From the IMG/VR virus record IMGVR_UViG_2718218128_000001: DNA of 20,762 nucleotides; one strand, written 5' to 3'. Source of the stretch: a virus (taxonomy: Duplodnaviria > Heunggongvirae > Uroviricota > Caudoviricetes). The position numbers and the translations under genes were made by a program. Below, piece after piece: positions 1,666 to 16,429 of the stretch (positions within the stretch are counted from its first letter, which is position 1; every line of letters begins with the position of its first letter). Under the pieces are notes generated by a model. It saw nothing but the letters and a program-made list of their open reading frames with translations. It was not told the origin of the DNA and did no database searches.

Positions 1666-4110
1666 TCAATAGTCGTGGGTCATGTTGGCACGCTGGCGGG
1701 CGCGTTTATCGCGCTCAATCTGTTCGAGCGTGTCGCGTAGTTGTCTGTCAAGCTGATGCCCCGGCGCAACACCTCCCGGCAGATTGATGTTGTATTCGCT
1801 TTTGCTCTGGTCAATGTAAGAGCGCCCCGCCGGTGCGGTAACTGGCTGATAAGCCTGATAGCCGCCATATGTGCTGGTTGCCGGGATGTAGGAATTACCC
1901 TGTGTGGCGGCATTGGTTTTGGCGGCGGTCTGGTCGAGGCTGTCCGACTCTTTGTTGATGATGCCGAGCTTTTCGAGAAGCCAGTCGACACCGCTGCGCA
2001 GCTTGTTAAAAACATTGAGCGGAGCCATCAAGGCAGAGGCCAGTGCCTGACCAAATATGACGCCGACATTTTTGCAGCTATCAAGCGTTTCCTGCGTGGC
2101 CTTAACCGGTGCTATCAGGTCTTTAAACCACTGCCAGACGCCGCGCAGTTTCTCGCCGAGACCATCAAAAATGGGAGCCAGTGGAGCGAACATTTCCCCG
2201 ACTGGGGCAAAGGCACTCATGATGCCCTCAATCACTCCCGAGAAAAATGCGCTGATGGGCTCCCAATATTTACGGATGAGTAGCGCCCCCGCCACAATCG
2301 CCGCACCGACGGCCACTATCGGCCAGGTAATCGCACCGAGCGCTGTCGCAATGGCACTACCGACGACAGTAAAGACCGTACCCAGCACGCCAGCAGCGGC
2401 GATAATGGCATTAATCCCCATGACAACCGGCCACGCAACGAGACCAATGCCGCCGATGATACCAATCAGCGCCAGCGCACCACCGGCGATGATGCCGATA
2501 GTTTCCGCTAACTCCTTGTTGTCTTTGATCCAGTCATCAAGCTTTAGCACATACCGTGTTGCTGTCTGAGTTAGCTGACGCAATGAGCTATCTTGCTGGT
2601 CGTAGAGGTCGGTACCGACGGCCTCATAAGCGGATTGAAACTCTTTGAAGTCGCCACCTAAGTTATCCTGCATGACCTTAACCAATTCCTCGGTTTTACC
2701 GTCAGAATCCTTAATTATCTTGGTCAGTTCATCCAGTTTTCCACTGGCCGCTGCGGCCATTAACACACTTGCAGCGGAACTGGCTTCCTCGCCGAATATC
2801 GTTTTCATATACTCGGCTTTTTGACCTGTACCGAGGTTGTTGCGCTTAAAGCTGGCTTGTATTTCTTTCAGGATGGTAAAGATTGGCCGTGTATTGCCTT
2901 TTTTATCCATCGTCTTAACGCCAAGCTCTTTAATGGCATCATAGGCTTTGCCAGTTGGAGCCTGCAGTCGACTTAAAACAGCTCGGCTACCGGTTCCTGC
3001 CATCGAACCTATGATTTTTGCATCGTGTAACGCACCCAGCATCGCGGCGGTTTCTTCTAGGCTGACACCGGCATCTTTGGCAACTGGACCAACATATGTA
3101 AGTGAGTCGTTTAATCCCTCAAATGATGCCTGTGTTTTATTTATCGCCATCGATATGACATCTGCTATATGCGATGCCTTGTCATCTGCGAGCCCGAATG
3201 CCGATTTGGTGCCAATAAGCAAAGCGGCGTTTTCCTCCATAGTTTTTTTATTTGCCAGCGACATATTCAGAATGGCCGGTGTTTGCGCCACTATGCCGTC
3301 TTTATCTGCGCCAGATTTGGCTACGATAATCTGCGCGGCGGCGGCATCATCTGCTGAGGCCGCTGAGTTATCGCCGAGCTGACGCGCCTGTTTGCGTAGA
3401 GCCTGCATTTCTGGAGACTGCTTATCGACCCCAAGCACGGCCTGCAGCTCGGAGTTTTTTTGCGCAAAGTCATAACCGGGCATCAGCAATTTAACCCCGG
3501 CCATCGTTCCCGCTGTCGCAATACCGACCCCGGCAGCACCTGCAGCGGCCATGTTACCGGCAAGCTCCTTACCCGATTTATATCGCTCTTTCACTCGGTT
3601 TAGGTGCGCCTGCTGTGCGCTGACCTTCTCCAATGCTTCACGCTGCCGGTTGAGCTGCGCCGTCGTCTCGCTGATGCGTGTTTTAAGCCCCCGCTCATCG
3701 TTTGCCAGATTGCGGGTATTGATACCGGCGGCACCCAGCTCGCGTTGTTGGCGTTTAACTGACTCGGTGAGGCTGTTGTATTTAACCTGCAGCCCCTCGG
3801 CGGCACGTTTTGCGGATTCGAGCACCTGTGCCTGCGCTCGCGTCGGGCGCTCAGTATTTTTGAATTGCGTTGCAAGCGCTTCAGCCTCGCGCTTTGCCTT
3901 CTCCAGCGACTGGCCGGTTACGGCCAGTTGAGCGCTGGTTTTGCGAAAGCCGTCGATTTTCGCGGCCTGCCCGTTCAGGTCACGCAGCCCTTTTTGTGTG
4001 TCGCGAATATCGCCCGACAGGGTTTTACTCGCGGTCTGGATGGATTTAAGCGGTCGGGTCGCCTGGTCGACCGCTTTCAGCAAAACCTCAAGTCTCAGGT
4101 TATTACTCAT
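1666..4110 (-). CDS. T: Tail tape measure protein
   Basis: 814-aa ORF (P2 gpT about 815 aa) with coiled-coil-like Q/A/K/E-rich N-terminal half and a Gly/Ala/Ile-rich hydrophobic segment. Its start is overlapped by the E' stop (aATGAGTAA). Confidence 0.9.
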   Translation of the reverse strand: MSNNLRLEVLLKAVDQATRPLKSIQTASKTLSGDIRDTQKGLRDLNGQAAKIDGFRKTSAQLAVTGQSLEKAKREAEALATQFKNTERPTRAQAQVLESAKRAAEGLQVKYNSLTESVKRQQRELGAAGINTRNLANDERGLKTRISETTAQLNRQREALEKVSAQQAHLNRVKERYKSGKELAGNMAAAGAAGVGIATAGTMAGVKLLMPGYDFAQKNSELQAVLGVDKQSPEMQALRKQARQLGDNSAASADDAAAAQIIVAKSGADKDGIVAQTPAILNMSLANKKTMEENAALLIGTKSAFGLADDKASHIADVISMAINKTQASFEGLNDSLTYVGPVAKDAGVSLEETAAMLGALHDAKIIGSMAGTGSRAVLSRLQAPTGKAYDAIKELGVKTMDKKGNTRPIFTILKEIQASFKRNNLGTGQKAEYMKTIFGEEASSAASVLMAAAASGKLDELTKIIKDSDGKTEELVKVMQDNLGGDFKEFQSAYEAVGTDLYDQQDSSLRQLTQTATRYVLKLDDWIKDNKELAETIGIIAGGALALIGIIGGIGLVAWPVVMGINAIIAAAGVLGTVFTVVGSAIATALGAITWPIVAVGAAIVAGALLIRKYWEPISAFFSGVIEGIMSAFAPVGEMFAPLAPIFDGLGEKLRGVWQWFKDLIAPVKATQETLDSCKNVGVIFGQALASALMAPLNVFNKLRSGVDWLLEKLGIINKESDSLDQTAAKTNAATQGNSYIPATSTYGGYQAYQPVTAPAGRSYIDQSKSEYNINLPGGVAPGHQLDRQLRDTLEQIERDKRARQRANMTHDY

Positions 4111-4590
4111 TGTGGTGTCCGCTACGCTGCAGCGCCTTTTCGCGCCATGTGATGAGCTCGGTCAGGCTCAGGGAATAGAGCTCTGATAGCGGCCAGTGGA
4201 ATATCACCGCGATATCCGCCATCAGGTCATCGGTCGACAGGTCGGGCGGGAAATCTACTCCGCCGAAGCCGGTGACAAAAAACCAATCACCTTAGCGGCC
4301 AGCGACAGCATATCGGGCAGGTTCATTGCGGTAAGCTCCTGCGCCGTAAGCGCGGGGTAGGTCATGCGTGGCAATACCTTAATCAGCGCATCGACTTCGG
4401 ACTGCGCCACCGCTGCCAGACTGACACCGCGCAGGGTACCGGCGTTCGGCTCAATCAGTGTGACTTTATCAATCGTCTGACCGGCGCGCTTAATCGGCTT
4501 GTCGAGGGTCACGACGTTCGGGTTTACGGTGTCAGTTTCATTGCCAGCCATATCAACAAATTCAGCGGTTTTACGTGGTGCTTTTGCCAT
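4103..4590 (-). CDS. E: E+E' tail assembly chaperone, programmed -1 frameshift product
   Basis: After a -1 slip at ggT-TTT-TTG, the reading frame continues as VTGFGGVDFPPDLSTDDLMADIAVIFHWPLSELYSLSLTELITWREKALQRSGHHNE and stops at TAA (4103..4105), overlapping the T start. This is the conserved E/E' arrangement of P2-like phages. Confidence 0.72.
4255..4590 (-). CDS. E: Tail assembly chaperone E (zero-frame product)
   Basis: Small ORF immediately upstream of T, ending just after a T-TTT-TTG slippery heptamer. Contains a TLDKPIKRAG...LIEPNAG segment typical of the gpE family as I recall it. The true start may be M1 (4590) or M14 (4551). Confidence 0.78.
   Translation of the reverse strand: MAKAPRKTAEFVDMAGNETDTVNPNVVTLDKPIKRAGQTIDKVTLIEPNAGTLRGVSLAAVAQSEVDALIKVLPRMTYPALTAQELTAMNLPDMLSLAAKVIGFLSPASAE
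4276..4282 (-). other. Slippery heptamer T TTT TTG for the E/E' -1 frameshift
   Basis: Plus-strand CAAAAAA at 4276..4282 is TTTTTTG on the minus strand, in frame as ggT TTT TTG within E. This is the same heptamer used by P2 E/E' as I recall it. Confidence 0.7.
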
Positions 4591-5135
4591 GATGTTTTTC
4601 TCTGCTCTGAATGGGGATTAATAACAGGCCAGCAGTGCTGACCGGTTAGGGAATTGTCCTGCAGACGCGAGACCGACCAGCGCATATCCCGCCACAGGTC
4701 ATCAATGGTGGTTTCGACGCTGTCGGCTTTTTTGTCACCCTTACCCGTGGCCTCAACCCCGCGATAACGCTCATACAGGGTGGCGGTCGCCATCGCCGTC
4801 ACGGCGCTGAGGTAGTGGAAAACGCGCACATTCTCGCCGTCGATTTCCTCGGCGTCAGGCACGTCGGCCAGTGTCTTAAACCCTGCGGCAATCTGGCGCA
4901 GCCGGTAGTCGTAAAGCTCCGCATTGGTTTCCGCCATGCCGGTCTTGATGGCGTTGCGCAGGCGCGCATCGGAAACCGTCTGCTCAAGGCGCATCAGTTC
5001 GCGCACCCGCTTCGGATCCACATCAGGGAAAAAGAACGTGTTTTTAATCACTGCGTCGCCCGTCTCCGGTGCGGGAATCACCACGCCCGGTACGTCCTGC
5101 GGTTCGTCGGGCTGATTCAGTATTACTGTCGTCAT
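4524..5135 (-). CDS. L: Head completion/stabilisation protein L with an aberrant C-terminal extension
   Basis: ORF directly downstream of terminase small subunit M, as in P2. The first ~165 aa look protein-like. The last ~40 aa (NSLTGQHCWPVINPHSEQRKTSWQKHHV...) are translated across the start region of E in another frame and look like read-through. Confidence 0.65.
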   Translation of the reverse strand: MTTVILNQPDEPQDVPGVVIPAPETGDAVIKNTFFFPDVDPKRVRELMRLEQTVSDARLRNAIKTGMAETNAELYDYRLRQIAAGFKTLADVPDAEEIDGENVRVFHYLSAVTAMATATLYERYRGVEATGKGDKKADSVETTIDDLWRDMRWSVSRLQDNSLTGQHCWPVINPHSEQRKTSWQKHHVKPLNLLIWLAMKLTP

Positions 5136-8145: not shown

Positions 8146-9915
8146 ATGACCATTTCCACAGATACAACCTTGTTGCATGACCCGCGACGGCAGGCATCGC
8201 TGCTTTACTGGCAGGGTTTTTCCGTGCCACAGATTGCCGAAATGCTGCAGGTCAAGCGCCCGACCGTGCAGAGCTGGAAGCAGCGCGACGGCTGGGACGG
8301 CATCGCGCCGATTTCCCGCGTTGAAAGCAGCCTTGAGGCTAGGCTGATTCAGCTCATCGCCAAGCCGCAAAAGACAGGGGGTGATTTCAAAGAGATTGAC
8401 CTGCTCGGACGGCAGATTGAACGGTTGGCGCGAGTCAACCGCTACAGCCAGACCGGCAACGAAGCCGACCTTAACCCCAACGTCGCCAACCGCAACAAAG
8501 GGGAGCGCAAAAAGCCGAAAAAGAATTTTTTCAGCGACGAGTCTATCGATAAACTAGAGGAATTATTTTTCGACCAGTCTTTCGAGTACCAGTTGCAGTG
8601 GTACCGCGCAGGACTGGAGCACCGTATTCGTGACATTCTCAAATCCCGCCAGATTGGCGCGACATTCTATTTCTCCCGCGAGGCACTGCTGCGCGCACTC
8701 AAAACCGGCCATAACCAGATATTTTTATCAGCCAGTAAAACGCAGGCTTACGTGTTCCGCGAATACATCATCCAGTTTGCGCGACTGGTCGACGTTGACC
8801 TGACTGGCGACCCGATTGTCATCGGTAACAACGGCGCAAAACTGATTTTTCTCGGTACCAATTCCAACACCGCGCAGAGCCATAACGGCGATCTGTATGT
8901 CGATGAAATATTCTGGATCCCGAATTTTCAGAAACTGCGCAAAGTCGCCTCGGGCATGGCCTCGCAAAAGCACCTGCGCTCGACCTATTTTTCGACACCT
9001 TCCACGCTGGCGCACGGCGCTTACCCCTTCTGGTCTGGCGAGCTGTTCAACAAGGGGCGCAGCCGGATTGCCGACCGCATCGAAATCGACATCAGTCACA
9101 GCGCGCTCGCCGGTGGCCAGCTCTGCGACGATGGCCAGTGGCGGCAGATTGTCACCATTGAGGACGCCCTTGCGGGTGGCTGCACCCTGTTCGACCTCGA
9201 CCAGCTCAAACGCGAAAACAGTGATGAGGACTTTAAGAACCTGTTTATGTGCGAGTTTGTCGACGATAAAGCGTCGGTATTCCCGTTCGAGGAGCTGCAG
9301 CGCTGCATGGTCGATGTGATGGAGGAATGGGAGGACTTTGCCCCGTTCGCCGACCATCCGTTCGGCTCTCGTCCTGTCTGGATTGGCTACGACCCGTCAC
9401 ACACCGGCGACAGTGCCGGGTGCGTCGTGCTCGCGCCGCCGGTGGTCTCTGGTGGCAAGTTCCGCATGCTGGAGCGCCACCAGTGGAAGGGCATGGATTT
9501 TGCAGCACAGGCAGAGGGCATCCGCAAGCTGACCGAGAAATACAACGTTGAATACATCGGCATTGACGCAACCGGCCTCGGTCTCGGCGTGTTCCAGCTG
9601 GTGCGCTCATTTTACCCGGCGGCACGCGGCATCCGTTACACACCTGAAATGAAAACCGCAATGGTACTCAAGGCGAAAGACACCATTCGCCGTGGCTGTC
9701 TGGAGTACGACGCCGGAGCAACCGACGTCACGCAGTCGTTTATGTCCATCCGCAAAACCATGACTAGCAGCGGGCGCAGCGCCACCTATGAGGCCAGCCG
9801 CACCGAGGAAGCCAGCCACGCCGATATCGCATGGGCGACCATGCACGCCCTGTTAAACGAACCGCTTTCTGCCGGTAGCGGCATGCAGCCTAAATCTATT
9901 CTGGAGTTCAACTAA
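8146..9915 (+). CDS. P: Terminase large (ATPase) subunit
   Basis: 589-aa ORF (P2 gpP about 590 aa), divergent from O and immediately followed by the portal gene (2-nt spacing). Confidence 0.9.
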   Translation: MTISTDTTLLHDPRRQASLLYWQGFSVPQIAEMLQVKRPTVQSWKQRDGWDGIAPISRVESSLEARLIQLIAKPQKTGGDFKEIDLLGRQIERLARVNRYSQTGNEADLNPNVANRNKGERKKPKKNFFSDESIDKLEELFFDQSFEYQLQWYRAGLEHRIRDILKSRQIGATFYFSREALLRALKTGHNQIFLSASKTQAYVFREYIIQFARLVDVDLTGDPIVIGNNGAKLIFLGTNSNTAQSHNGDLYVDEIFWIPNFQKLRKVASGMASQKHLRSTYFSTPSTLAHGAYPFWSGELFNKGRSRIADRIEIDISHSALAGGQLCDDGQWRQIVTIEDALAGGCTLFDLDQLKRENSDEDFKNLFMCEFVDDKASVFPFEELQRCMVDVMEEWEDFAPFADHPFGSRPVWIGYDPSHTGDSAGCVVLAPPVVSGGKFRMLERHQWKGMDFAAQAEGIRKLTEKYNVEYIGIDATGLGLGVFQLVRSFYPAARGIRYTPEMKTAMVLKAKDTIRRGCLEYDAGATDVTQSFMSIRKTMTSSGRSATYEASRTEEASHADIAWATMHALLNEPLSAGSGMQPKSILEFN

Positions 9916-9916
9916 A

Positions 9917-10963
9917 ATGGGTAAACAAAAATCCCGTAAAGCCAACGCACAAAAGGCCAGCAAACCACAACAACTGACCGCCAGCGCACCGCCAAAAACG
10001 ACAGCGTTCACCTTCGGCGAGCCGGTGCCGGTACTCGATAAGCGCGACATTCTGGATTACGTCGAATGCATCAGTAACGGCAAATGGTACGAGCCGCCGG
10101 TCAGCTTCTCAGGGCTGGCAAAGAGCCTGCGCTCTGCCGTGCATCACAGCTCGCCAATTTATGTTAAGCGTAACGTGCTCGCGAGCACCTACATTCCGCA
10201 CCCGTTGTTATCCCGTCAGGATTTCAGCCGCTTTGCGCTCGATTATCTGGTGTTCGGTAACGCCTTTCTTGAGCAGCGCCACAGCGTCACCGGCCAGTTA
10301 ATCAAACTGCTGGCCTCGCCAGCCAAATACACCCGACGCGGAGTCGACGATTCGATTTTCTGGTTTGTGGAAAACTTCACCCAGCCGCACGAGTTCGCGC
10401 CTGATACCGTGTTTCACCTGCTGGAGCCCGACATTAATCAGGAGATTTACGGTCTGCCGGAATATCTCAGCGCGCTTAATTCCGCTTGGCTGAATGAATC
10501 CGCGACGCTGTTCCGCCGCAAGTATTATCAGAACGGCGCGCACGCAGGCTACATCATGTATGTGACTGACCCGGCGCAAAGTGCGACCGACGTCGAATCG
10601 CTGCGCGAGGCGATGCGTAACTCGAAGGGACTCGGCAACTTTAAGAACCTGTTTTTCTACGCCCCCGGCGGAAAACCGGACGGCATCAAAATCGTGCCAC
10701 TGAGCGAGGTCGCCACAAAGGATGACTTTTTCAACATTAAGAAAGCCAGCGCCGCCGACCTGATGGACGCGCACCGCGTACCGTTCCAGCTCATGGGCGG
10801 CAAGCCCGAGAATATCGGTTCACTCGGTGACGTTGAGAAGGTGGCAAAGGTATTTGTGCGCAATGAGCTGTCGCCGCTACAGGACAGGTTCAGGGAGGTA
10901 AACGACTGGCTCGGCATGGAGGTCATCAGGTTCAAAGAGTACACCCTCGATAATCCGGAATAA
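9917..10963 (+). CDS. Q: Portal protein
   Basis: 348-aa ORF (P2 gpQ about 344 aa) downstream of P. ATG start at 9917. Confidence 0.9.
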   Translation: MGKQKSRKANAQKASKPQQLTASAPPKTTAFTFGEPVPVLDKRDILDYVECISNGKWYEPPVSFSGLAKSLRSAVHHSSPIYVKRNVLASTYIPHPLLSRQDFSRFALDYLVFGNAFLEQRHSVTGQLIKLLASPAKYTRRGVDDSIFWFVENFTQPHEFAPDTVFHLLEPDINQEIYGLPEYLSALNSAWLNESATLFRRKYYQNGAHAGYIMYVTDPAQSATDVESLREAMRNSKGLGNFKNLFFYAPGGKPDGIKIVPLSEVATKDDFFNIKKASAADLMDAHRVPFQLMGGKPENIGSLGDVEKVAKVFVRNELSPLQDRFREVNDWLGMEVIRFKEYTLDNPE

Positions 10964-10973
10964 TCACCACTCT

Positions 10974-10992
10974 AGCCGCCAGCATGGCGGCT
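10974..10992. terminator. GC-rich hairpin between convergent Q and the cargo gene (possible bidirectional terminator)
   Basis: AGCCGCC-agcat-GGCGGCT is a perfect 7-bp stem with a 5-nt loop, lying between the Q stop (10961..10963) and the convergent stop at 10994..10996. There is no U-tract, so this is weak as an intrinsic terminator. Confidence 0.3.
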
Positions 10993-10993
10993 C

Positions 10994-11719
10994 TCAATCG
11001 TGAGTGGATATTTGCGAAACAAACTCTTTAACTCCATCTCGTTCAAGTATTTTACTGTCATGGATATACTTTACGATATCCCACTCGTAGTATGTACAAG
11101 CCATTGCAACTAAAGATATTATTTTTATGTCAGTTAAGTTAACTAATGTTTCATAATAATCTTCCCGTTCAACCCCGCAATTATCTATCAACTTCACAAT
11201 CAAATAAAAGCGACGCACCACTGAAAAAATGCAATCATTAGCATCCACTTCACTTAACCACTTTGTTATTACCTCTTTTTTTACCTTGGCTTTAACTAAA
11301 ATTACAATATTATCTTCAAGATAAGTTACGGCTGCACCACTTGTAAATTCTTCGACCACCCCGTCAGTTTGTCCATCAATATCACCAACTTGAACACAAA
11401 ACCTTTCAAAGTTAGAATCCTGACATTCAACCAAATGGAAAAATCTCACTTCAAATTTTTTATACTCTTCTAAAGATTCTTGCCTTTTTACTTCATCGAT
11501 CAGGCTGGAATTAGCCTCCCTTTGAAGTTTTATTGAATTTATAAGGAGGTAAATTGTAATAAATGAAAGTATAGGGTTGACGACACCACCCAAATAATCA
11601 CCAAACTGCGCCCAAACATCAGTCTTGCTGGATAAATGTCCGTTTACTCCGAAGTTGAAGTAATACAAGGCGCACACAGCTACAATCACGCCAGCCGAAG
11701 ACAGCAACACCTTTCTCAT
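10994..11719 (-). CDS. Hypothetical membrane protein of cargo cassette: two N-terminal TM helices plus ~180-aa soluble domain; candidate effector
   Basis: 241-aa ORF with ATG start overlapping the upstream gene's stop (ATGA). Hydrophobic segments at about residues 5-25 and 44-62. The region is AT-rich, unlike the phage backbone. No family recognised by eye. Confidence 0.6.
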   Translation of the reverse strand: MRKVLLSSAGVIVAVCALYYFNFGVNGHLSSKTDVWAQFGDYLGGVVNPILSFITIYLLINSIKLQREANSSLIDEVKRQESLEEYKKFEVRFFHLVECQDSNFERFCVQVGDIDGQTDGVVEEFTSGAAVTYLEDNIVILVKAKVKKEVITKWLSEVDANDCIFSVVRRFYLIVKLIDNCGVEREDYYETLVNLTDIKIISLVAMACTYYEWDIVKYIHDSKILERDGVKEFVSQISTHD

Positions 11720-12534
11720 ACAGTTTCAACCATACGGATTAGATATTTCACCACATCACCACTTTTTACTACAACTTTGCTAACAGTAAGTTTTAGATAT
11801 GTGTAGTTATCTTGCCTGCCATTATTATTGTGTAAATTTAATGAGACCAATCTTTTTTGAGCGGCGGGTATAGCCTTTAAAGGCATGTAAAAACCAAAGG
11901 CTACTGTATCATCTTCACCTTCGATAACTAACCTACCATTTCCAGTTCTCGCATTAAATCGAGTAATAACTGCGTTAATATTAACTTGACCGGGCTTTAT
12001 TTTTGATTGTGTCAAGTTTGTAGCAGTCATTGTGTCTAACTTTGCTATTCTTTGTTTTCCAGCAGGTTTTTTATAGTTAAGTTCAACATCAAAGTTTTTT
12101 TGAAGATTTATCCTATGCATCCTTACCAAAGGTTGTCTGATACGATCAATAAGTTCATCTTCAATTTCCTCAAGCTCCTCAATAATTCCTGCAGCTTTTG
12201 GAGATAGCTCCTTAGTTTCCAGATATAGAGATTCAGAAATAAAATACCCCATGACTTCCGAGAACACAGAACGGGTCATTTTTTTTAATTCGGCAGCTAA
12301 TTCCGGCTCATTAACAATCAAGTCGAAGTTTTGACCATAAGAACTTTTAAAGCTTTGTTTGAGAACCGCTCGCGCAGGGTTAACATGAGTGCGGCGCTTA
12401 ATAATTTTTTTTCTGAGTATTGCCTCTGCTAGTATGCATGTCACCTCAGCCGTTCCAGAGAGGGTATCAAGGCCATACTCCATATCAACTTCTTGATCAC
12501 CACTTTTGATGACAACGTCATAGCTAACTTTCAT
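11716..12534 (-). CDS. Hypothetical soluble protein of cargo cassette; candidate sensor or enzymatic component
   Basis: The ORF track starts at GTG (12540). The ATG two codons in (12534) is preceded by AAGGA at 7-nt spacing, giving about 272 aa. No TM segments, and no nucleotidyltransferase or nuclease motif recognised by eye. AT-rich. Confidence 0.6.
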   Translation of the reverse strand: MKVSYDVVIKSGDQEVDMEYGLDTLSGTAEVTCILAEAILRKKIIKRRTHVNPARAVLKQSFKSSYGQNFDLIVNEPELAAELKKMTRSVFSEVMGYFISESLYLETKELSPKAAGIIEELEEIEDELIDRIRQPLVRMHRINLQKNFDVELNYKKPAGKQRIAKLDTMTATNLTQSKIKPGQVNINAVITRFNARTGNGRLVIEGEDDTVAFGFYMPLKAIPAAQKRLVSLNLHNNNGRQDNYTYLKLTVSKVVVKSGDVVKYLIRMVETV

Positions 12535-12597
12535 CGGCACATCCTTGATTTAGTAACCTTTGGTTATTATTTTTCATCTTCTACTCATTGACACCGA

Positions 12598-12626
12598 TTT
12601 TTTACACCAAAAATATCAAATTGCAA
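12598..12626 (-). promoter_or_regulatory. Candidate sigma70 promoter for the cargo cassette
   Basis: Minus strand reads TTGCAA, a 16-nt spacer, then TAAAAA, about 60 nt upstream of the cargo start codon, in an AT-rich leader. Found by eye only. Confidence 0.3.
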
Positions 12627-12642
12627 GTGTGTGCTGCGCGCA

Positions 12643-12661
12643 ATGCTTTCCCCGCCACGCC
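12643..12661. other. cos-like site (19-nt cohesive end sequence)
   Basis: Plus-strand ATGCTTTCCCCGCCACGCC is the reverse complement of GGCGTGGCGGGGAAAGCAT. That matches my recollection of the phage 186 cohesive end and differs at 2 positions from P2 (GGCGAGGCGGGGAAAGCAC). It lies in a ~450-bp non-coding GC-rich stretch, in the expected place between Q and A. Confidence 0.6.
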
Positions 12662-12826
12662 TGCCCGCTTTACGGGGCGGTTTTAATGCAGTTGCATGAA
12701 CACTCGGGATCCGCGCCAGCTCTGGCGGCGCACGGTCAGAACGGGCAACCCCTGCGAATGCAAAAGCATGCACCTGTTGCATGCACGGCTAAAAACGGGG
12801 AAATCGCGGAAAAATGGCATAAAAAA

Positions 12827-12845
12827 CCGGCATTCACGGTGCCGG
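12827..12845 (-). terminator. Rho-independent terminator for minus-strand transcription
   Basis: CCGGCA-ttcacgg-TGCCGG hairpin flanked by AAAAAA on the plus side, which is a TTTTTT tract after the stem on the minus strand. It lies downstream of the small minus-strand ORF at 12986..13177. Confidence 0.45.
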
Positions 12846-12985
12846 TTTGGGGCTGGTTTTGTCGCGATTACTGGGCGTGTAATGCGCCAATAACACTATT
12901 GAGGCACATGCTGGCAAAAATCAGCAGAAAAATCGTCGTCCACCGATTTTCATAAACGAGAGATAACATATTGATATAGATCCTT

Positions 12986-13177
12986 TTATTTGTGCATTCT
13001 AATGTGGTTTAACAGGTGTTTGATAACGACCGTAAGCTCATCTTTACTGGCTTGCTCGACCATTTTTTCGGTGTAGCTTTCCACCTCACGAGAACTCAGG
13101 TCGTTATTTGAAGCCATTACGGTCAGCTTTTTTGCCCAATCGGCAAACGGGTCTATCGATGAAAGGGAATTATGCAT
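12986..13177 (-). CDS. Small hypothetical protein (about 63 aa from the internal ATG)
   Basis: ORF with a GAGG Shine-Dalgarno-like sequence upstream of the ATG at 13177 and a terminator-like hairpin downstream. The start overlaps the divergent gene's start on an ATGCAT palindrome. No family recognised. Confidence 0.3.
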   Translation of the reverse strand: MHNSLSSIDPFADWAKKLTVMASNNDLSSREVESYTEKMVEQASKDELTVVIKHLLNHIRMHK

Positions 13178-13607
13178 GTCCAAAAACCTCGAATTATTTA
13201 ACCAGCAGACGGCGGAAATTTTTGCGGTGTTATGGGATAACTTCCCGGTGCCGCAGGTCATCACCTACGAAAAATTTAACGCCGTGCTACCTGATGACTA
13301 CTTTGACCAACTTAACTCACCGGAAATGAAAGCACTGAATCAGTTGCGTAGTGTGGTTGAGGGTACATTCACTTTTCTCAGTGAAAACGGCTACATCCAA
13401 TATGAAACAGACCATCAGACTTATTTTCGGGATGTGCGCCTGACCGAGAAAGCACTCGCCGTGCTCAACAAAAAGCCCGAGGCACTCGGCGGTAGTGAAA
13501 CGATGGGCGATAAGATTATCAGTGCGGTGAAAGACGGGACACCCGGAGTTATTGCAGGTGCGGTGACAAACCTGCTTTCACTCGGTGTCAATCTGGTAAC
13601 CAACTAA
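13176..13607 (+). CDS. Hypothetical protein, 143 aa (accessory gene)
   Basis: ATG start with a good AAGGGA Shine-Dalgarno sequence 7 nt upstream. It is on the opposite strand to the flanking phage operons and has a hydrophobic C-terminal segment (GVIAGAVTNLLSLGVNLV). No family recognised. Confidence 0.5.
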   Translation: MSKNLELFNQQTAEIFAVLWDNFPVPQVITYEKFNAVLPDDYFDQLNSPEMKALNQLRSVVEGTFTFLSENGYIQYETDHQTYFRDVRLTEKALAVLNKKPEALGGSETMGDKIISAVKDGTPGVIAGAVTNLLSLGVNLVTN

Positions 13608-13673
13608 CGCCTCGCGTGGCTCGTTGTTCAACCCGTCAGCACTGAAAGCAAGTTTCAGCACCGGCGGCGTTTG

Positions 13674-13907
13674 TTAATGCAGCCAGCTATCGTCCTCCCA
13701 TACCTGCTGCATGATTTCCATTACTCGTTTTTTATCTTCGTCCAGTTTCAAACCGCTTAGTTCAACGCCATTAGCGGAGCCCTTGCGAATTCGGATAGCA
13801 GTCTTTGGGTAAATAGGTTGAAGATTGCGGTACAGTTCAGCCTCAAGTGCATCCAATGTTGCCTGACTAATTTTTTGCTCTTTATCCAACGTGATATTGA
13901 TTCTCAT
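13674..13907 (-). CDS. DinI-family protein (Tum-like antirepressor candidate)
   Basis: 77 aa, alignable by eye to E. coli DinI: MRI.VT. at the N-terminus, DAL..EL.R..Q in the middle, EDK.R..EI.Q..WE near the C-terminus. Downstream of a LexA box. Confidence 0.8.
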   Translation of the reverse strand: MRINITLDKEQKISQATLDALEAELYRNLQPIYPKTAIRIRKGSANGVELSGLKLDEDKKRVMEIMQQVWEDDSWLH

Positions 13908-13910
13908 AAT

Positions 13911-14093
13911 CTAATCAGCCTTATAAAAATTATCATCTTCGGTTTCGTTATTTTCGCTGTTTGCTAGGTCTGCAATGAGAGTGAGCGCGAGCTTTAAGTC
14001 TGATGGCTTGCAGTTTGCAATCAGAGATACCTCGGCAATAAATTGCACACAAGCCCACTTTTGCTGCGTTCGGCTGAAATGTTCGCCAACCAT
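13911..14093 (-). CDS. Small hypothetical protein (60 aa), first gene of the LexA-box operon
   Basis: ATG start preceded by a strong GGGAGGGA Shine-Dalgarno sequence. Its stop lies 3 nt before the DinI-like start, suggesting coupling. The LexA box is about 20 nt upstream. Confidence 0.45.
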   Translation of the reverse strand: MVGEHFSRTQQKWACVQFIAEVSLIANCKPSDLKLALTLIADLANSENNETEDDNFYKAD

Positions 14094-14112
14094 GAAATCC
14101 CTCCCATAGGGT

Positions 14113-14132
14113 TACTGTATGTTTATACAGTA
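14113..14132. promoter_or_regulatory. LexA (SOS) box
   Basis: TACTGTATGTTTATACAGTA has perfect CTGT-N8-ACAG spacing and matches 17 of 20 positions of the consensus TACTGTATATATATACAGTA. It sits between the stop of gene A and the 60-aa/DinI-like operon. Confidence 0.75.
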
Positions 14133-14206
14133 GCACGTATTGGCAAAAGATGGGAAGAAAAAAAACGAATAGAGCGATTGCTGTATGTGCATGATATGGA
14201 TATGAA

Positions 14207-16429
14207 TTACTCATGTATTGGTTTTGATTCTTCAGCCATCGCCGCAACACGATTAAGGATTTTCCGAGCTTTAGCCTCATGCGATGGTGCTGCGGAAAAT
14301 ATTTCTCCTTTGGCCGTTCCGCGTAGCCATTTACCATCAAAACAACTTTTACCACCGGCCATCAGGTGCAGGGCTTCGCCCCGGCTGATATTAATGCCGG
14401 TTGTCAGATGTATCTCATCGATAGTTTTAGCTATAGCTGCGTTTTGCTCATCCGTTCCGTGGATGAATTTTCGCCGTGCTGCTGGCTTTTGCTTCCTGAG
14501 TCGGTTGGTCAATTCTCGTCTTTCACGCCGACTCAGTGGTTTTGTTAAATCCAGTATCGGTGGATCGCTTTCGCTTCCCGTACAGTTATTGACAGAACTC
14601 CGAGGGACGGCTTTGCCGTCCTGAAGGTCAACGGCCAAATCAACAGCACGCTTCGGAACAATCTTCCACTGAGTGAGCCGGGTTAAAATCGGGCTTCCTG
14701 CACCTATGGAGGAATCGTAGACCCCCTTAATACATACCGTTTCCTCACCGTACTGATTAAGCTCGGTACGCGGTTCATACAGTGTGCGCACCTGTAAATC
14801 ATCGCGACGGACAAACGGCCCACCCTGAGCATTAACATAACCAGCCCAGTCACCAGCGTCGGCGGCATCATGGACGGCGGCAAACTCAACGCTCAGACCG
14901 TGCGCGGTTTCGGTATCAGCGAGGCGACGCAACTCACGGTAAACCGTCACCGGCGCACCACCAATAAACTGAAACTGACGGATGTGCCAGCGCGCAGCCC
15001 ATGCTGAAACGGCGGGGGCTGTCTCTTTCAGCAGCTCACCGCTTTCATCATCGGTTTCACCATCGAGAGCATAACCGTCGATATTTTTTGAAATGTATTT
15101 AGCAACATAGCCGGTTGCGCTGCCTTTCTCCGGGTCAATGGACTCCGCGTGGAAACGTGCTTTTTGGGATTTATCGCTTTTCAGTTCGTGGCGGTCTTCT
15201 TTCCATGCGTATTTACGGACGATGGAGCGAACATATTCAACATCTTCCGGCAGCATGAACATCAGCATGTGCCAGTGTGGAGTGCCGTCGTGATGGGGCT
15301 CGGCGACACGAATACCGAAAATACGGACATCTTCCCGATGTAGTTTGGCACGGATACGCGCCCAGATACCGGTTAGATAGTTTTGCGTGTCAGCCGGGCT
15401 GGCACCGCTCCATTTGCTGTTACGGTAACCGGCTTTAGTCGTGGCGTGATATTTTGACGGCGCGGTTAGAGTGTAAAACTCACCGACATAACCGAGCTCA
15501 TTACAGATGTTTTCAAACCCACGAATGCGGGTCATGAGCTCACAGCGGCGAATCGCAGGGTTAGCAACTGAGCCATCATATTTTTCAATTAGGCTGATAC
15601 GGTTGCCGTCTTCGTCTTCGAGATCCAGACCTTTGAGAAATTCACGAGTGCGGCGCTTTTGTTCACGCCAGTCAGTCACGCAGTTTTTACTCGCGTAAGT
15701 GTTTTTTTTCTTACTGACGTTGCCGACTGCAATTTGCAGGTGTTCGCGCCACGTAGCTGCTACACGGCGCAAACGACCGCGCCACCACCCATCGTTAAAC
15801 ATTTTGGCGATAGCCGGTGCGATTTCATCCGCACCGACATATTTTTTTTCAACCCGCTCCCAATGTGGTGGGATAACGTTGAATTGGAGGGAAATAAAGC
15901 CAGCACGAATATACCAGGTGTACAGCGTTTTAAGCTCGCCGAATCCGTGGTCATTAATGTTGGCAAGTTCACCACGAATGAAATTAGCAATATCAGCGGC
16001 CAACAGGTCAACATCAGCGCGCGACATGTCCGGGAGACGGTTATATCGGGCGACCATATTAACCATGCGTGACGACAGATATTGCATTTGCTGAGTATCA
16101 AAATGACTTCCAAAAACAGCGGTTGATACCTTGCTGTTGATACCAGCGCATTCGTATTTTTTTGCGACCAGTTCAAGACGCGGCAATGCCTTTTTGCAGA
16201 AGCTGATTAAAAATGCATTGGCTCGTTGACTACCCTGATTTTGTTCCAGCACCGCAGCAGTGCGATAAACATCTAACCGCACGCAGTCGGGCTGGAGAGA
16301 AAGCACCTTTTTTGCATGCAGCAAAGCCGCGAACATACGGTCGCGGCGATGCTGTTGCTCATAAGTAAGGTATGGGCTGGAGATTGCCGACCGTGGGACG
16401 TTCCACGGATAAGCGAATTGAACAGCCAA
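14207..16429 (-). CDS. A: Replication initiation protein A (rolling-circle HUH endonuclease)
   Basis: 740-aa ORF (P2 gpA about 761 aa) with an HUH motif (GTPHWHMLMF) and a Tyr-containing active-site-like region (GYVAKYISKNIDGY). The ORF as drawn starts at TTG, so the exact start is uncertain. Confidence 0.9.
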   Translation of the reverse strand: MAVQFAYPWNVPRSAISSPYLTYEQQHRRDRMFAALLHAKKVLSLQPDCVRLDVYRTAAVLEQNQGSQRANAFLISFCKKALPRLELVAKKYECAGINSKVSTAVFGSHFDTQQMQYLSSRMVNMVARYNRLPDMSRADVDLLAADIANFIRGELANINDHGFGELKTLYTWYIRAGFISLQFNVIPPHWERVEKKYVGADEIAPAIAKMFNDGWWRGRLRRVAATWREHLQIAVGNVSKKKNTYASKNCVTDWREQKRRTREFLKGLDLEDEDGNRISLIEKYDGSVANPAIRRCELMTRIRGFENICNELGYVGEFYTLTAPSKYHATTKAGYRNSKWSGASPADTQNYLTGIWARIRAKLHREDVRIFGIRVAEPHHDGTPHWHMLMFMLPEDVEYVRSIVRKYAWKEDRHELKSDKSQKARFHAESIDPEKGSATGYVAKYISKNIDGYALDGETDDESGELLKETAPAVSAWAARWHIRQFQFIGGAPVTVYRELRRLADTETAHGLSVEFAAVHDAADAGDWAGYVNAQGGPFVRRDDLQVRTLYEPRTELNQYGEETVCIKGVYDSSIGAGSPILTRLTQWKIVPKRAVDLAVDLQDGKAVPRSSVNNCTGSESDPPILDLTKPLSRRERRELTNRLRKQKPAARRKFIHGTDEQNAAIAKTIDEIHLTTGINISRGEALHLMAGGKSCFDGKWLRGTAKGEIFSAAPSHEAKARKILNRVAAMAEESKPIHE

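What the first reader, a model, noticed from the sequence alone, without database searches (positions are those of the whole stretch)
10994..12540. Unassigned two-gene cargo cassette (soluble protein plus 2-TM membrane protein) in the portal-to-cos variable region
Two co-directional minus-strand genes overlap by 4 nt (ATGA), which implies translational coupling. The upstream product (~272 aa) is soluble. The downstream product (241 aa) has two N-terminal transmembrane helices and a ~180-aa cytoplasmic domain. This pairing of a sensor-like protein with a membrane effector is typical of abortive-infection systems, although the gene order is the reverse of Kiwa. The cassette sits between portal gene Q and cos, within the A-to-Q interval where P2-like phages carry old, tin and other anti-phage systems (the hotspot survey by Rousset and colleagues, as I recall it). 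I looked for cyclase or CD-NTase motifs (GS...DxD), nuclease, TIR and Walker motifs and found none, so it could be an undescribed defence or superinfection-exclusion system.
Basis: partly seen in the sequence, partly recalled or inferred. Interest (0 to 1): 0.85.

Follow-up and report, generated by a model that had tools for sequence, protein, structure and literature searches.

The report
AbiC-like membrane protein with OB-fold partner
A 1.6-kb, two-gene cassette next to the packaging site of a 186/P2-type E. coli prophage encodes a membrane protein distantly related to the old, unsolved lactococcal abortive-infection protein AbiC and a soluble partner that always accompanies it, so it is most likely an untested anti-phage module of a partly known kind.

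Summary
Two co-directional minus-strand genes, A (12534-11716, 272 aa, soluble) and B (11719-10994, 241 aa, two N-terminal TM helices), overlap by ATGA. They fill a 1,640-bp, 36-37% GC insert that replaces the 137-bp portal-terminator-to-cos spacer of a 186-like prophage. The pair lies in the gpA-gpQ hotspot of Rousset et al. 2022. It is not unrecorded, though: their supplementary tables list this family as unnamed, untested systems (P2 no. 77, P4 no. 31). B is also not an orphan. Profile searches place it as a divergent branch of the putAbiC (AbiC/AbiP) abortive-infection superfamily, below the Pfam and PADLOC thresholds. A has a weak DUF7946 + DUF7947 architecture: an N-terminal domain with no structural match and a basic C-terminal OB fold. 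B followed A in all 33 fetched non-plasmid loci with downstream sequence. The pair occurs in P2-like prophages, P4-like satellites, integrative islands, ColE1 and IncX plasmids and isolated chromosomal inserts. The best reading is a mobile two-component Abi-type defence, with A as OB-fold sensor or regulator and B as AbiC-like membrane effector. No phenotype exists. I rate it a new variant of a known kind, of moderate interest.

The parts
10975..10991 (.). GC-rich hairpin (GCCGCC-AGCAT-GGCGGC) homologous to the phage 186 portal terminator tW. It lies 3 nt beyond the stop codon of gene B, so it could terminate both convergent transcripts.
   Evidence: Sequence. Phage 186 annotates tW at the homologous place. 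Homology to cassette-less Eganviruses ends at 10992, and the T-tract that follows the hairpin in 186 is missing here.
10993..12632 (.). 1,640-bp low-GC insert (the cassette). It replaces the 137-bp C/A-rich spacer found between tW and cos in cassette-less 186-like phages.
   Evidence: blastn against Yersinia phage MHG51 and phage 186: homology covers 10802-10992 and resumes at 12633/12636. GC is 0.34-0.38 inside the insert and 0.55-0.57 in the flanks. 14 of 5,426 complete E. coli genomes carry it, and 58 others match only the flanks; in the listed rows the two flanks lie within about 300 bp.
10994..11719 (-). Gene B: 241 aa. TM1 is about residues 5-23. A short periplasmic loop follows. TM2 is about residues 40-62 and carries the invariant motif W36..F39-G40-D41..G44-G45..P49 (Q38, Y42 and N48 nearly invariant). 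TM2 continues into a long stalk helix to about residue 104, followed by an acidic helical domain. B is a divergent member of the putAbiC (AbiC/AbiP) superfamily.
   Evidence: hhalign of the B family against a PF16872-positive P2-hotspot protein gave probability 98.9%, E 2.9e-17. A B-profile search gave 6,270 representatives at E<=1e-3, and 7 of 10 remote hits tested carry PF16872 above its threshold. tblastn hits genes annotated 'putative phage abortive infection protein'.
11716..12534 (-). Gene A: 272 aa, soluble. The N-terminal alpha/beta domain (about 1-178) has no structural match. The C-terminal basic OB fold (about 179-272) carries the invariant loop R192-x-N194-x-x-T197-G198-N-G200-R201. 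There are weak DUF7946 + DUF7947 signatures.
11716..11719 (-). ATGA overlap of the stop codon of A with the start codon of B (translational coupling).
   Evidence: The same 4-nt overlap is annotated or called in plasmid and satellite copies; other homologues overlap by 8-14 nt or are separated by 1-2 nt.
12542..12546 (-). Shine-Dalgarno sequence AAGGA, 7 nt upstream of the ATG of A at 12534. It argues against the GTG at 12540 as the start.
   Evidence: Sequence. The RefSeq CDS is 819 nt long.
12566..12594 (-). Candidate sigma-70 promoter (GTGTCA-17-AATAAT) between cos and gene A. It is the only consensus match upstream of A.
   Evidence: 9 of 12 matches. This is a pattern match only. The region has 12 such matches against 6.0 +/- 2.2 in shuffles.
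12636..12661 (.). cos region: 26/26 identity to the terminal bases of phage 186. The 19-nt cohesive end corresponds to 12643-12661. It marks the right limit of the cassette slot.

Best explanation
The cassette is a mobile, two-component anti-phage module of the abortive-infection type. It is carried as cargo in the cos-proximal hotspot of a 186/P2-like prophage and is probably expressed from its own promoter in the lysogen. What is shown: the two genes are translationally coupled and always inherited together. B is an inner-membrane protein with two TM helices, a long stalk helix and an acidic cytoplasmic helical domain, and it belongs to the putAbiC (AbiC/AbiP) superfamily. A is a cytoplasmic two-domain protein whose C-terminal domain is a basic OB fold with an invariant R-x-N-x-x-T-G-x-G-R loop. 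What is inferred: A is the sensor or regulator. In uninfected cells it keeps B silent, possibly by docking its basic OB domain on the acidic domain of B. During infection, the OB domain or the conserved E37/S65/H140 site of the N-domain binds a phage-made ligand, which could be single-stranded nucleic acid, a replication or packaging intermediate, or a phage protein. That changes the A-B complex. B then acts from the membrane in one of two ways: it dissipates the membrane potential through an oligomer lined by the invariant D41/N48 of TM2, or, like lactococcal AbiC and AbiP, it blocks late phage gene expression or replication. Either way the infection aborts before progeny are made, which protects the clonal lysogens and therefore the prophage.
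For: Gene structure and coupling. Insert in the gpA-gpQ hotspot next to cos: with the hotspot definition read in Rousset 2022. B is homologous to putAbiC: hhalign probability 98.9%, E 2.9e-17 over 164 columns to a protein scoring 68 bits on PF16872. The B profile finds 6,270 representatives, and 7 of 10 remote ones carry PF16872 above its threshold. tblastn hits plasmid genes named 'putative phage abortive infection protein'. AbiC has 2 TM helices, and AbiP has 1 TM helix plus a nucleic-acid-binding domain; both are experimentally validated Abi proteins (review PMC13064643). A has an OB fold. The charge complementarity is family-wide: the median pI of the A OB domain is 9.6, and the median pI of the B cytoplasmic domain is 4.8, against 5.6-9.4 in ten stand-alone relatives of B (seven of them PF16872-positive) and 6.7 in the PF16872-positive P2-hotspot protein. 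B lies immediately downstream of A in all 33 fetched non-plasmid loci with downstream sequence. The A and B identity matrices correlate at r = 0.92, with 0 of 2,000 Mantel permutations reaching that value. Contexts: the same portal-cos slot holds a 58%/56%-identical allele in other E. coli prophages and an allele in an Enterobacter metagenome contig. The pair is also found in P4-like satellites after psu/delta, in int-AlpA-primase elements beside an AAA_15/21 + RloB system, in Pseudomonas islands beside a 1,724-aa AAA_16-domain (faint Pfam hit) protein or a resolvase, next to Mrr and ParDE in Marinomonas, on ColE1 and IncX1 plasmids, and as a bare two-gene insert next to valS in Chromobacterium. 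Among 98 neighbouring ORFs from 13 other loci there are integrases, NERD+UvrD, AriA-like and AbiO hits. In P4 hotspots, 6 of 8 randomly chosen loci of unknown genes conferred defence (PMC13586616).
Against: No experiment exists for this pair or any homologue; the searches found none. The pair is absent from the cloned-systems table of Rousset 2022. B itself does not reach the PF16872 threshold or any PADLOC AbiC/AbiP model, so membership is remote. The mechanism of AbiC itself is unknown. The OB fold is generic, because it also matches metal-binding (SilF) and toxin B-subunit OB domains. No A-B complex model could be made. Some copies sit among housekeeping genes with no other defence gene nearby. 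P2 hotspots also carry non-defence cargo such as partition systems and cdt toxins. Tight co-inheritance would also be expected of a plain toxin-antitoxin pair.
Confidence: 0.6

Rival explanations
1. A toxin-antitoxin or addiction module whose main role is to stabilise the mobile element that carries it. B would be a membrane toxin and A its antitoxin, with no primary anti-phage function.
For: The upstream soluble gene is translationally coupled to the downstream membrane gene. The pair is always co-inherited. It occurs on 4.6-6.1-kb ColE1 plasmids, where it takes up about a quarter to a third of the replicon, and on IncX1 plasmids among type I toxins. In Marinomonas it sits next to ParDE.
Against: A 272-aa, two-domain 'antitoxin' with an OB fold is atypical. 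The pair sits in slots where experimentally validated defence systems are found in P2 and P4. B is related to validated Abi proteins. It also occurs as a chromosomal insert with no element to stabilise. The two roles are not exclusive, since many Abi systems are TA-like.
Confidence: 0.15
2. A superinfection-exclusion system that acts at the envelope. B would sit in the inner membrane and block DNA entry of incoming phages, with A as an accessory factor, and the cell would survive.
For: The pair is prophage-encoded and includes an inner-membrane protein. There is a conserved motif at the periplasmic end of TM2. Many prophage Sie proteins are small membrane proteins (general knowledge).
Against: The periplasmic loop is only about 16 residues long, and most conserved mass is cytoplasmic. 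Relatives AbiC and AbiP act after DNA entry, on capsid protein production, transcription switching or replication. An obligate cytoplasmic OB-fold partner fits intracellular sensing better.
Confidence: 0.1
3. Non-defence cargo, for example a host-physiology or virulence (lysogenic conversion) function or a phage-cycle accessory such as a lysis or packaging modulator next to cos.
For: P2 hotspots also hold partition systems and cytolethal distending toxin. The cassette abuts cos and the portal terminator. No catalytic or defence domain is recognised directly.
Against: Most 186-like phages lack the pair entirely: 58 of 72 matching E. coli genomes match only the flanks, and only one of 50,697 phage records has the pair. 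So it is dispensable for the phage cycle. The same pair rides on plasmids, satellites and islands in Gamma- and Betaproteobacteria, which argues against a 186-specific role. B is homologous to Abi proteins.
Confidence: 0.1

Closest known systems
Lactococcal AbiC / AbiP group (Pfam PF16872 putAbiC; 'putative phage abortive infection protein')
   Same: B shares the N-terminal membrane module with the W-x-x-F-G-D-[YF]-x-G-G-x-x-x-P motif at the start of the last TM helix, and the following helical domain that contains the putAbiC region. The homology is detectable by profile methods. AbiC has two TM helices like B. Both are carried on mobile elements.
   Different: B scores below the Pfam and PADLOC thresholds. 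AbiC and AbiP work as single genes, whereas B was always preceded by A in the loci examined (33/33). The cytoplasmic domain of B is distinctly acidic (median pI 4.8), whereas AbiP binds RNA or ssDNA itself. In this system a separate basic OB-fold protein is present. No phenotype is known for B.
Rousset et al. 2022 catalogue of P2/P4 hotspot systems (unnamed system no. 77 of Table S5B and no. 31 of Table S1B)
   Same: It is the same protein family and the same locus class. The exact proteins of this window (WP_073507268 and WP_073507269) appear in their locus table. Systems no. 77 and no. 31 are 45-48%-identical alleles of B and A.
   Different: The systems are only listed (sequences, counts, number of TM helices). 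The allele of this window is rare enough (4 occurrences in the part of the table that is held) to fall below their curation threshold of 10.
Lambda RexAB and RexAB-type systems (e.g. P. putida RexABpp)
   Same: The logic is the same: a prophage-encoded gene for a soluble, nucleic-acid-binding-type protein lies directly upstream of a gene for an oligomerising inner-membrane effector, and together they cause abortive infection by membrane damage. This is the best functional analogy.
Pfam DUF7946 / DUF7947 proteins
   Same: A and its relatives match DUF7946 in the N-terminal half and DUF7947 in the OB-fold half, in the same order. Some homologues are pre-annotated with PF25678.
   Different: All matches are below the gathering thresholds for the window protein (12.8 and 14.4 bits against 27). 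No function or literature exists for either DUF.
Zorya ZorB (MotB-like) transmembrane segment
   Same: 31 of 36 B-family members give a weak match to the PADLOC ZorB3 model over TM2 and the start of the stalk. There is an invariant Asp in the TM helix.
   Different: The best E-value is only 3.2e-5. There is no ZorA partner and no peptidoglycan-binding domain. The predicted topology of the helix is opposite (out-to-in). This is a lead about ion conduction, not membership.

Membership tests
putAbiC / AbiC-AbiP superfamily (for B) | Match to Pfam PF16872 at or above the gathering score (22 bits), or to a PADLOC AbiC/AbiP model | tested here: not met
   B has no PF16872 hit at E<=1, and none of its 36 relatives has one at E<=0.1. 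There is no PADLOC Abi model hit.
putAbiC / AbiC-AbiP superfamily (for B) | Profile-level homology to proteins that do carry PF16872 | tested here: met
   hhalign gave probability 98.9%, E 2.9e-17 over 164 columns to a P2-hotspot protein that scores 68 bits on PF16872. 7 of 10 remote B-profile hits (E about 1e-18) carry PF16872 at 28-77 bits. tblastn hits 'putative phage abortive infection protein' genes.
putAbiC / AbiC-AbiP superfamily (for B) | N-terminal membrane anchor (two TM helices in AbiC) followed by a helical soluble domain | tested here: met
   Hydropathy peaks lie at about residues 13 and 52. AF2 helices are at 2-23 and 33-104, followed by a helical domain. The FGD-x-GG-x-x-x-P motif is shared with PF16872-positive proteins. 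AbiC topology is taken from the review PMC13064643.
putAbiC / AbiC-AbiP superfamily (for B) | Acts as a single-gene system | tested here: not met
   B directly follows A in all 33 fetched non-plasmid loci with downstream sequence, and the two co-diverge. This is genomic evidence only.
putAbiC / AbiC-AbiP superfamily (for B) | Abortive-infection phenotype against phages | not testable with these tools
   Needs cloning and phage challenge.
DUF7946-DUF7947 proteins (for A) | Pfam PF25678 (N-terminal) and PF25679 (C-terminal) above the gathering score of 27 bits | tested here: inconclusive
   The window protein scores 12.8 bits (E 0.12) and 14.4 bits (E 0.039), in colinear order. 15 of 41 and 28 of 41 relatives match at E<=0.1, with best values 2.1e-6 and 5.6e-5. 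Several homologues carry a precomputed PF25678 annotation.
OB-fold proteins (for the A C-terminal domain) | Five-stranded closed beta-barrel superposable on known OB folds | tested here: met
Lambda RexAB-type exclusion systems | RexA fold in the soluble protein and a four-TM RexB-like membrane protein | tested here: not met
Kiwa (KwaA/KwaB) | KwaA (4 TM) plus KwaB (DUF4868) | tested here: not met
   No PADLOC or Pfam match to either protein exists for the window proteins or their families.
Zorya | ZorA/ZorB motor pair plus soluble Zor components | tested here: not met
   There is only a weak ZorB3 match restricted to one TM helix. No ZorA-like gene is in the cassette.
P2-like gpA-gpQ cos-proximal hotspot cargo (Rousset 2022) | Variable genes located between replication gene A and portal gene Q, adjacent to cos, in a P2/186-like prophage | tested here: met
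   Portal at 9917-10963, cassette at 10993-12632, cos at 12636-12661, gene A at 14207-16429. The definition was read. The exact proteins are listed in their Table S5A.

The most novel reading that the evidence does not exclude
The A-B pair defines a distinct, widespread two-component branch of the AbiC/AbiP superfamily. In it, infection sensing has been moved to a separate protein (a new N-terminal fold plus an OB domain). That protein gates an ion-conducting membrane oligomer built from the Asp/Asn-bearing TM2 and stalk of B. If so, this system would give the first mechanistic entry into how AbiC-type proteins, unsolved since 1992, sense phage and stop it.
Probability: 0.2. Interest if true: 0.7.

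Novelty: new variant of a known kind. Interest (0 to 1): 0.5.

Why it matters
AbiC and AbiP were among the first abortive-infection genes cloned, and their mechanism is still unknown. putAbiC-like proteins are very numerous: a B profile finds more than 6,000 50%-identity clusters. This cassette is a compact Gram-negative version in which the membrane protein comes with an obligate, separable OB-fold partner. That arrangement is experimentally convenient for dissecting sensing versus killing in E. coli with standard coliphages. It would also add a named system to the P2/P4 hotspot repertoire. At present neither PADLOC 2.0.0 nor Pfam recognises the pair. For prophage biology it is a clean example of cargo exchange in a slot only 137 bp long between the portal terminator and cos. 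The same module is shared with satellites, plasmids and islands.

Tried and rejected
1. Direct family assignment failed. PADLOC, Pfam and NCBIfam gave nothing significant for either protein. PHROGs gave only 'unknown function' families.

2. Sequence searches against PDB chains found nothing for A or B.

5. JukAB was considered because it is a sensor-plus-effector pair known in Pseudomonas. It was rejected because JukA is a YaaW/Cbp3-like protein with DUF3944.

6. RexAB-type membership was rejected.

7. Kiwa was rejected (no hits).

8. The new P4 systems of Moura de Sousa et al. 2026 (Crouga, Bandua, Aernus, Toga, Reve, Hailong) were read, and none has this architecture. That paper's supplements are not held.

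9. The motifs TGNGRL and QFGDY were sought in the supplements of DefensePredictor (12 files) and Vassallo 2022 and were absent. The supplements of the metagenomic-selection paper are not held.

10. Literature searches for DUF7946/7947, the WP accessions and the PHROG ids returned nothing.

11. Rfam, tRNA and repeat scans of the cassette found nothing relevant.

12. The search for related loci with the 41-sequence alignment failed for lack of a conserved stretch. It worked with 7 sequences.

13. The profile search for remote relatives of A listed only close family members, so the wider DUF7946/7947 neighbourhoods could not be surveyed.
Full report
**Where the window comes from.** The window is identical to a 186-like (Eganvirus, P2 family) prophage in the chromosome of E. 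coli strain S3. Terminase ATPase (8146-9915, +) and portal (9917-10963, +) are followed by the two genes of the finding on the minus strand. After them come cos, a few small conserved 186-type genes including a DinI/Tum-like gene, and the replication gene A (14207-16429, -).

**Check of the observation.**
- The ORFs are 10994-11719 (241 aa) and 11716-12540. The minus-strand junction reads GTA TGA GAA, so the stop codon of the upstream gene and the ATG of the downstream gene share ATGA.
- The upstream gene most likely starts at the ATG at 12534, giving 272 aa. AAGGA lies 7 nt upstream of that ATG but only 1 nt from the GTG at 12540, and RefSeq annotates the 272-aa form.
- The upstream protein (A) has no hydrophobic segment. 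The downstream protein (B) has two, centred near residues 13 and 52.
- The AlphaFold2 model of B (pLDDT 86.5) shows a helix at 2-23 and a 72-residue helix at 33-104, which is TM2 running on into a stalk. A helical globular domain follows.
- Lys and Arg are concentrated at the N-terminus and directly after TM2. This places both termini, and the roughly 180-residue domain, in the cytoplasm (positive-inside rule; inference).

**The cassette as an insertion.**
- Homology to cassette-less Eganviruses (phage 186, Yersinia phage MHG51) ends at 10992, right after the hairpin of the portal terminator tW. It resumes at 12633-12636, immediately before the 26 terminal bases of 186 that contain cos (12636-12661, 100% identity).
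- In those phages the interval is a 137-bp C/A-rich spacer. Here it is 1,640 bp with 36-37% GC, against about 55% in the flanks.
- Of 5,426 complete E. coli genomes, 72 match this flank type. Fourteen carry the cassette at 99.4-100% identity. The other 58 match only the flanks; in the listed rows the two flanks lie within about 300 bp.
- The position is inside the gpA-gpQ, cos-proximal interval that Rousset et al. 2022 defined as the P2 defence hotspot. The cassette lies on the portal side of cos.

**The genes are real and form a unit.**
- A has 111 and B has 71 clusters of homologues in a single-sequence search, down to about 35% identity. An A-profile search finds 457.
- They come mainly from Enterobacterales, Aeromonas, Pseudomonas, Chromobacterium, Marinomonas, Marinobacter, Methylobacter, Bordetella, Achromobacter and Cupriavidus.
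- In every fetched non-plasmid locus where sequence downstream of A is available (33 of 33; three others are cut by contig ends), a B homologue follows directly. The start usually overlaps the stop of A by 4-14 nt.
- Pairwise identities of A and of B across 23 distinct pairs correlate at r = 0.92, and 0 of 2,000 Mantel permutations reach that value. The two genes therefore travel and diverge together without partner swapping.

**What B is.**
- B itself reaches no Pfam, NCBIfam or PADLOC threshold.
- The supplementary tables of Rousset et al. contain a P2-hotspot protein annotated putAbiC that carries the same motif (WGQFGDYIGGVLNP) at the start of its last TM helix. That protein scores 68 bits on PF16872. 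It aligns to the B-family profile with hhalign probability 98.9%, E 2.9e-17, over 164 columns. The aligned region includes the TM module and the segment RRFYLIxKLID, which aligns with the start of the putAbiC domain.
- A B-profile search of 1.84 billion representatives gave 6,270 hits at E <= 1e-3 but only 94 at E <= 1e-30. B proper is thus a small branch of a very large superfamily.
- Seven of ten remote hits tested carry PF16872 above its gathering score.
- tblastn of B against plasmids hits genes named 'putative phage abortive infection protein'.
- According to a 2026 review, lactococcal AbiC has two TM helices. AbiP has one TM helix plus a sequence-independent RNA/ssDNA-binding domain, and the two superpose structurally. 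AbiC lowers capsid protein production, and AbiP disturbs the early-to-late switch and replication. Their mechanisms remain unknown.
- B is therefore a remote AbiC/AbiP-type protein. It fails the formal HMM thresholds and, unlike AbiC and AbiP, it is never found alone.

**What A is.**
- The AlphaFold2 model is confident (pLDDT 89, pTM 0.83).
- Foldseek finds nothing at E <= 0.001, and its best matches are again OB or cold-shock domains.
- The N-terminal alpha/beta domain (about 1-178) has no match.
- Pfam gives sub-threshold, colinear hits to DUF7946 (N-terminal) and DUF7947 (C-terminal). These recur in 15 and 28 of 41 family members. No literature exists on either DUF.
- The invariant residues form a loop in the OB domain, R192-x-N194-x-x-T197-G198-N-G200-R201, together with N233/L234/N237 and K263. 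In the N-domain, E37, S65, G67 and H140 are invariant.
- The OB domain is basic across the family (median pI 9.6) and the cytoplasmic domain of B is acidic (median 4.8). Ten stand-alone relatives of B, seven of them PF16872-positive, range from 5.6 to 9.4. This suggests, but does not show, that the two domains dock on each other, or that A supplies the nucleic-acid binding that AbiP has in cis.

**Contexts.**
- A 58%/56%-identical allele occupies exactly the same portal-cos slot in other E. coli 186-like prophages; it is indexed in 437 blocks of the collection. Another allele occupies the slot in an Enterobacter roggenkampii prophage. In Pectobacterium and Dryocola the neighbouring ORF sizes suggest the same slot, but those ORFs were not annotated.
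- In Pantoea ananatis the pair follows psu, delta and a sid-sized gene of a P4-like satellite.
- In Dickeya it lies between the integrase and AlpA of an int-AlpA-primase element that also carries an AAA_15/21 + RloB system.
- In Pseudomonas it lies in islands next to a 1,724-aa protein with a faint AAA_16 Pfam hit (possibly STAND-type), or next to a resolvase.
- In Marinomonas it lies beside Mrr and ParDE.
- In Chromobacterium it is a bare two-gene insert next to valS.
- Nineteen plasmid records carry both genes adjacent. These include 4.6-6.1-kb ColE1-type plasmids and 38-51-kb plasmids typed conjugative, one of which was typed IncX1/IncX3.
- Among 98 neighbouring ORFs of 13 further loci there are integrases, NERD+UvrD candidates, AriA-like ATPases and AbiO. 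Ordinary housekeeping genes are also present.
- Only one of 50,697 deposited phage genomes has the pair: Klebsiella phage Kp4865-4, at 30-35% identity.
- This is the distribution expected of a self-contained, horizontally mobile defence or addiction module. It is not that of a phage-cycle gene.

**Prior record.**
- The exact proteins of this window appear as 'hypothetical' in Rousset's table of P2 loci.
- Diverged alleles are listed as unnamed system no. 77 of the P2 table (50 occurrences, '2 TM in protein 1') and no. 31 of the P4 table (49 occurrences).
- Neither motif occurs in their table of cloned systems, so the family was catalogued but not tested.
- I found no later description. The six new P4 systems of 2026 have other architectures. 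The DefensePredictor and Vassallo supplements lack the motifs. JukAB and RexAB-type systems are built from different proteins.

**How it most likely works (confidence about 0.6 for the class, lower for the details).**
- Shown: a coupled, co-inherited pair consisting of a cytoplasmic OB-fold protein and an AbiC-type membrane protein, carried as cargo of defence hotspots and other mobile elements.
- Inferred: A senses infection through its OB domain or its conserved N-domain site and controls B. B then stops the infection from the membrane, either by dissipating membrane potential or, like AbiC and AbiP, by blocking late phage expression or replication.
- A lead for the first option is that TM2 carries invariant D41, G44, G45 and P49 and nearly invariant N48. 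In addition, 31 of 36 family members give a weak match to the Asp-bearing TM helix of ZorB3. However, the predicted orientation is opposite to that of MotB/ZorB.
- The nearest functional analogy is lambda RexAB, without homology.
- Rivals are a plain toxin-antitoxin/addiction module (0.15), envelope-level superinfection exclusion (0.1) and non-defence cargo (0.1).

**Verdict.** The family is already catalogued and its membrane component belongs to a known Abi superfamily. I rate it a new variant of a known kind with moderate interest (0.5). It is one of many untested hotspot candidates. It is made more attractive by the obligate OB-fold partner, which could open up the old AbiC problem in E. 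coli.

Noticed in passing
window 4110-4700 (junction near 4590-4660): The prophage of this window is defective. A truncated head-completion gene (L homologue, annotated as a pseudogene) abuts tail genes E/E'. The genes between them in the P2 gene order (lysis, baseplate, fibre, sheath and tube genes) are therefore missing, which amounts to about 9.7 kb. Only strain S3 has this junction. The other cassette-bearing genomes have the tail tube gene next to E and about 16 kb between this point and the cassette, so the cassette normally rides in apparently complete prophages.
   Followed up: yes
window 10975-10999: The portal terminator hairpin is kept, but its T-tract (GGCGGCTTTTTC in 186) is replaced by GGCGGCTCTCAATC where the cassette begins. 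The stop codon of gene B lies 3 nt from the hairpin on the other strand. Termination of the late portal transcript and of the cassette transcript may therefore share one altered hairpin.
   Followed up: partly
gene B residues 28-84 (window about 11468-11638): 31 of 36 B-family members weakly match the PADLOC ZorB3 (MotB-like) model over TM2 and the start of the stalk (best E 3.2e-5). NCBIfam PRK09040 hits the same stretch. TM2 has invariant D41, G44, G45 and P49 and nearly invariant N48. The predicted topology is opposite to MotB/ZorB, so this is an unexplained resemblance.
   Followed up: partly
gene A residues 37, 65, 140 (window 11716-12534): E37, S65 (in an invariant S-Y-G loop with low model confidence) and H140 are invariant in the N-terminal domain, which has no structural match. 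They could form a catalytic or ligand site. Distances in the model could not be inspected.
   Followed up: no
L044 (NZ_CP049104.1 4149-5704) and L045 (NZ_CP024261.1): The same A-B pair (about 37%/30% identity, 4-nt overlap) sits on a 6.1-kb ColE1-type plasmid and on IncX1 conjugative plasmids between the type I toxin genes dinQ and dqlB. On the small plasmids it takes up a quarter to a third of the replicon.
   Followed up: partly
window 12664-14200: On the other side of cos the window keeps small conserved 186-type genes: a 63-aa gene (12986-13177, -), a 143-aa gene (phrog_2266), a DinI/Tum-like gene at 13674-13907 and a 60-aa ORF. The same set is present in prophages carrying the divergent allele. 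In a related Yersinia Eganvirus, the gene next to cos is annotated 'expression from plasmid blocks 186 infection; P2 Orf97 homolog'. This points to a second possible exclusion function in the interval.
   Followed up: no
window 10993-12632: The cassette has 36-37% GC inside a 55% GC prophage. AT-rich immunity loci of this kind are reported to be silenced by H-NS (title and abstract of bioRxiv 10.64898/2026.09.05.749240 seen). Expression in the lysogen may therefore be conditional.
   Followed up: no
L034 (Pantoea ananatis, 12307-14770): About 3 kb downstream of the pair in the P4-like element there is a HEPN_Swt1 + DUF5343 + MauJ-like gene trio after a transposase. It is possibly another defence system in the same islet.
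   Followed up: no
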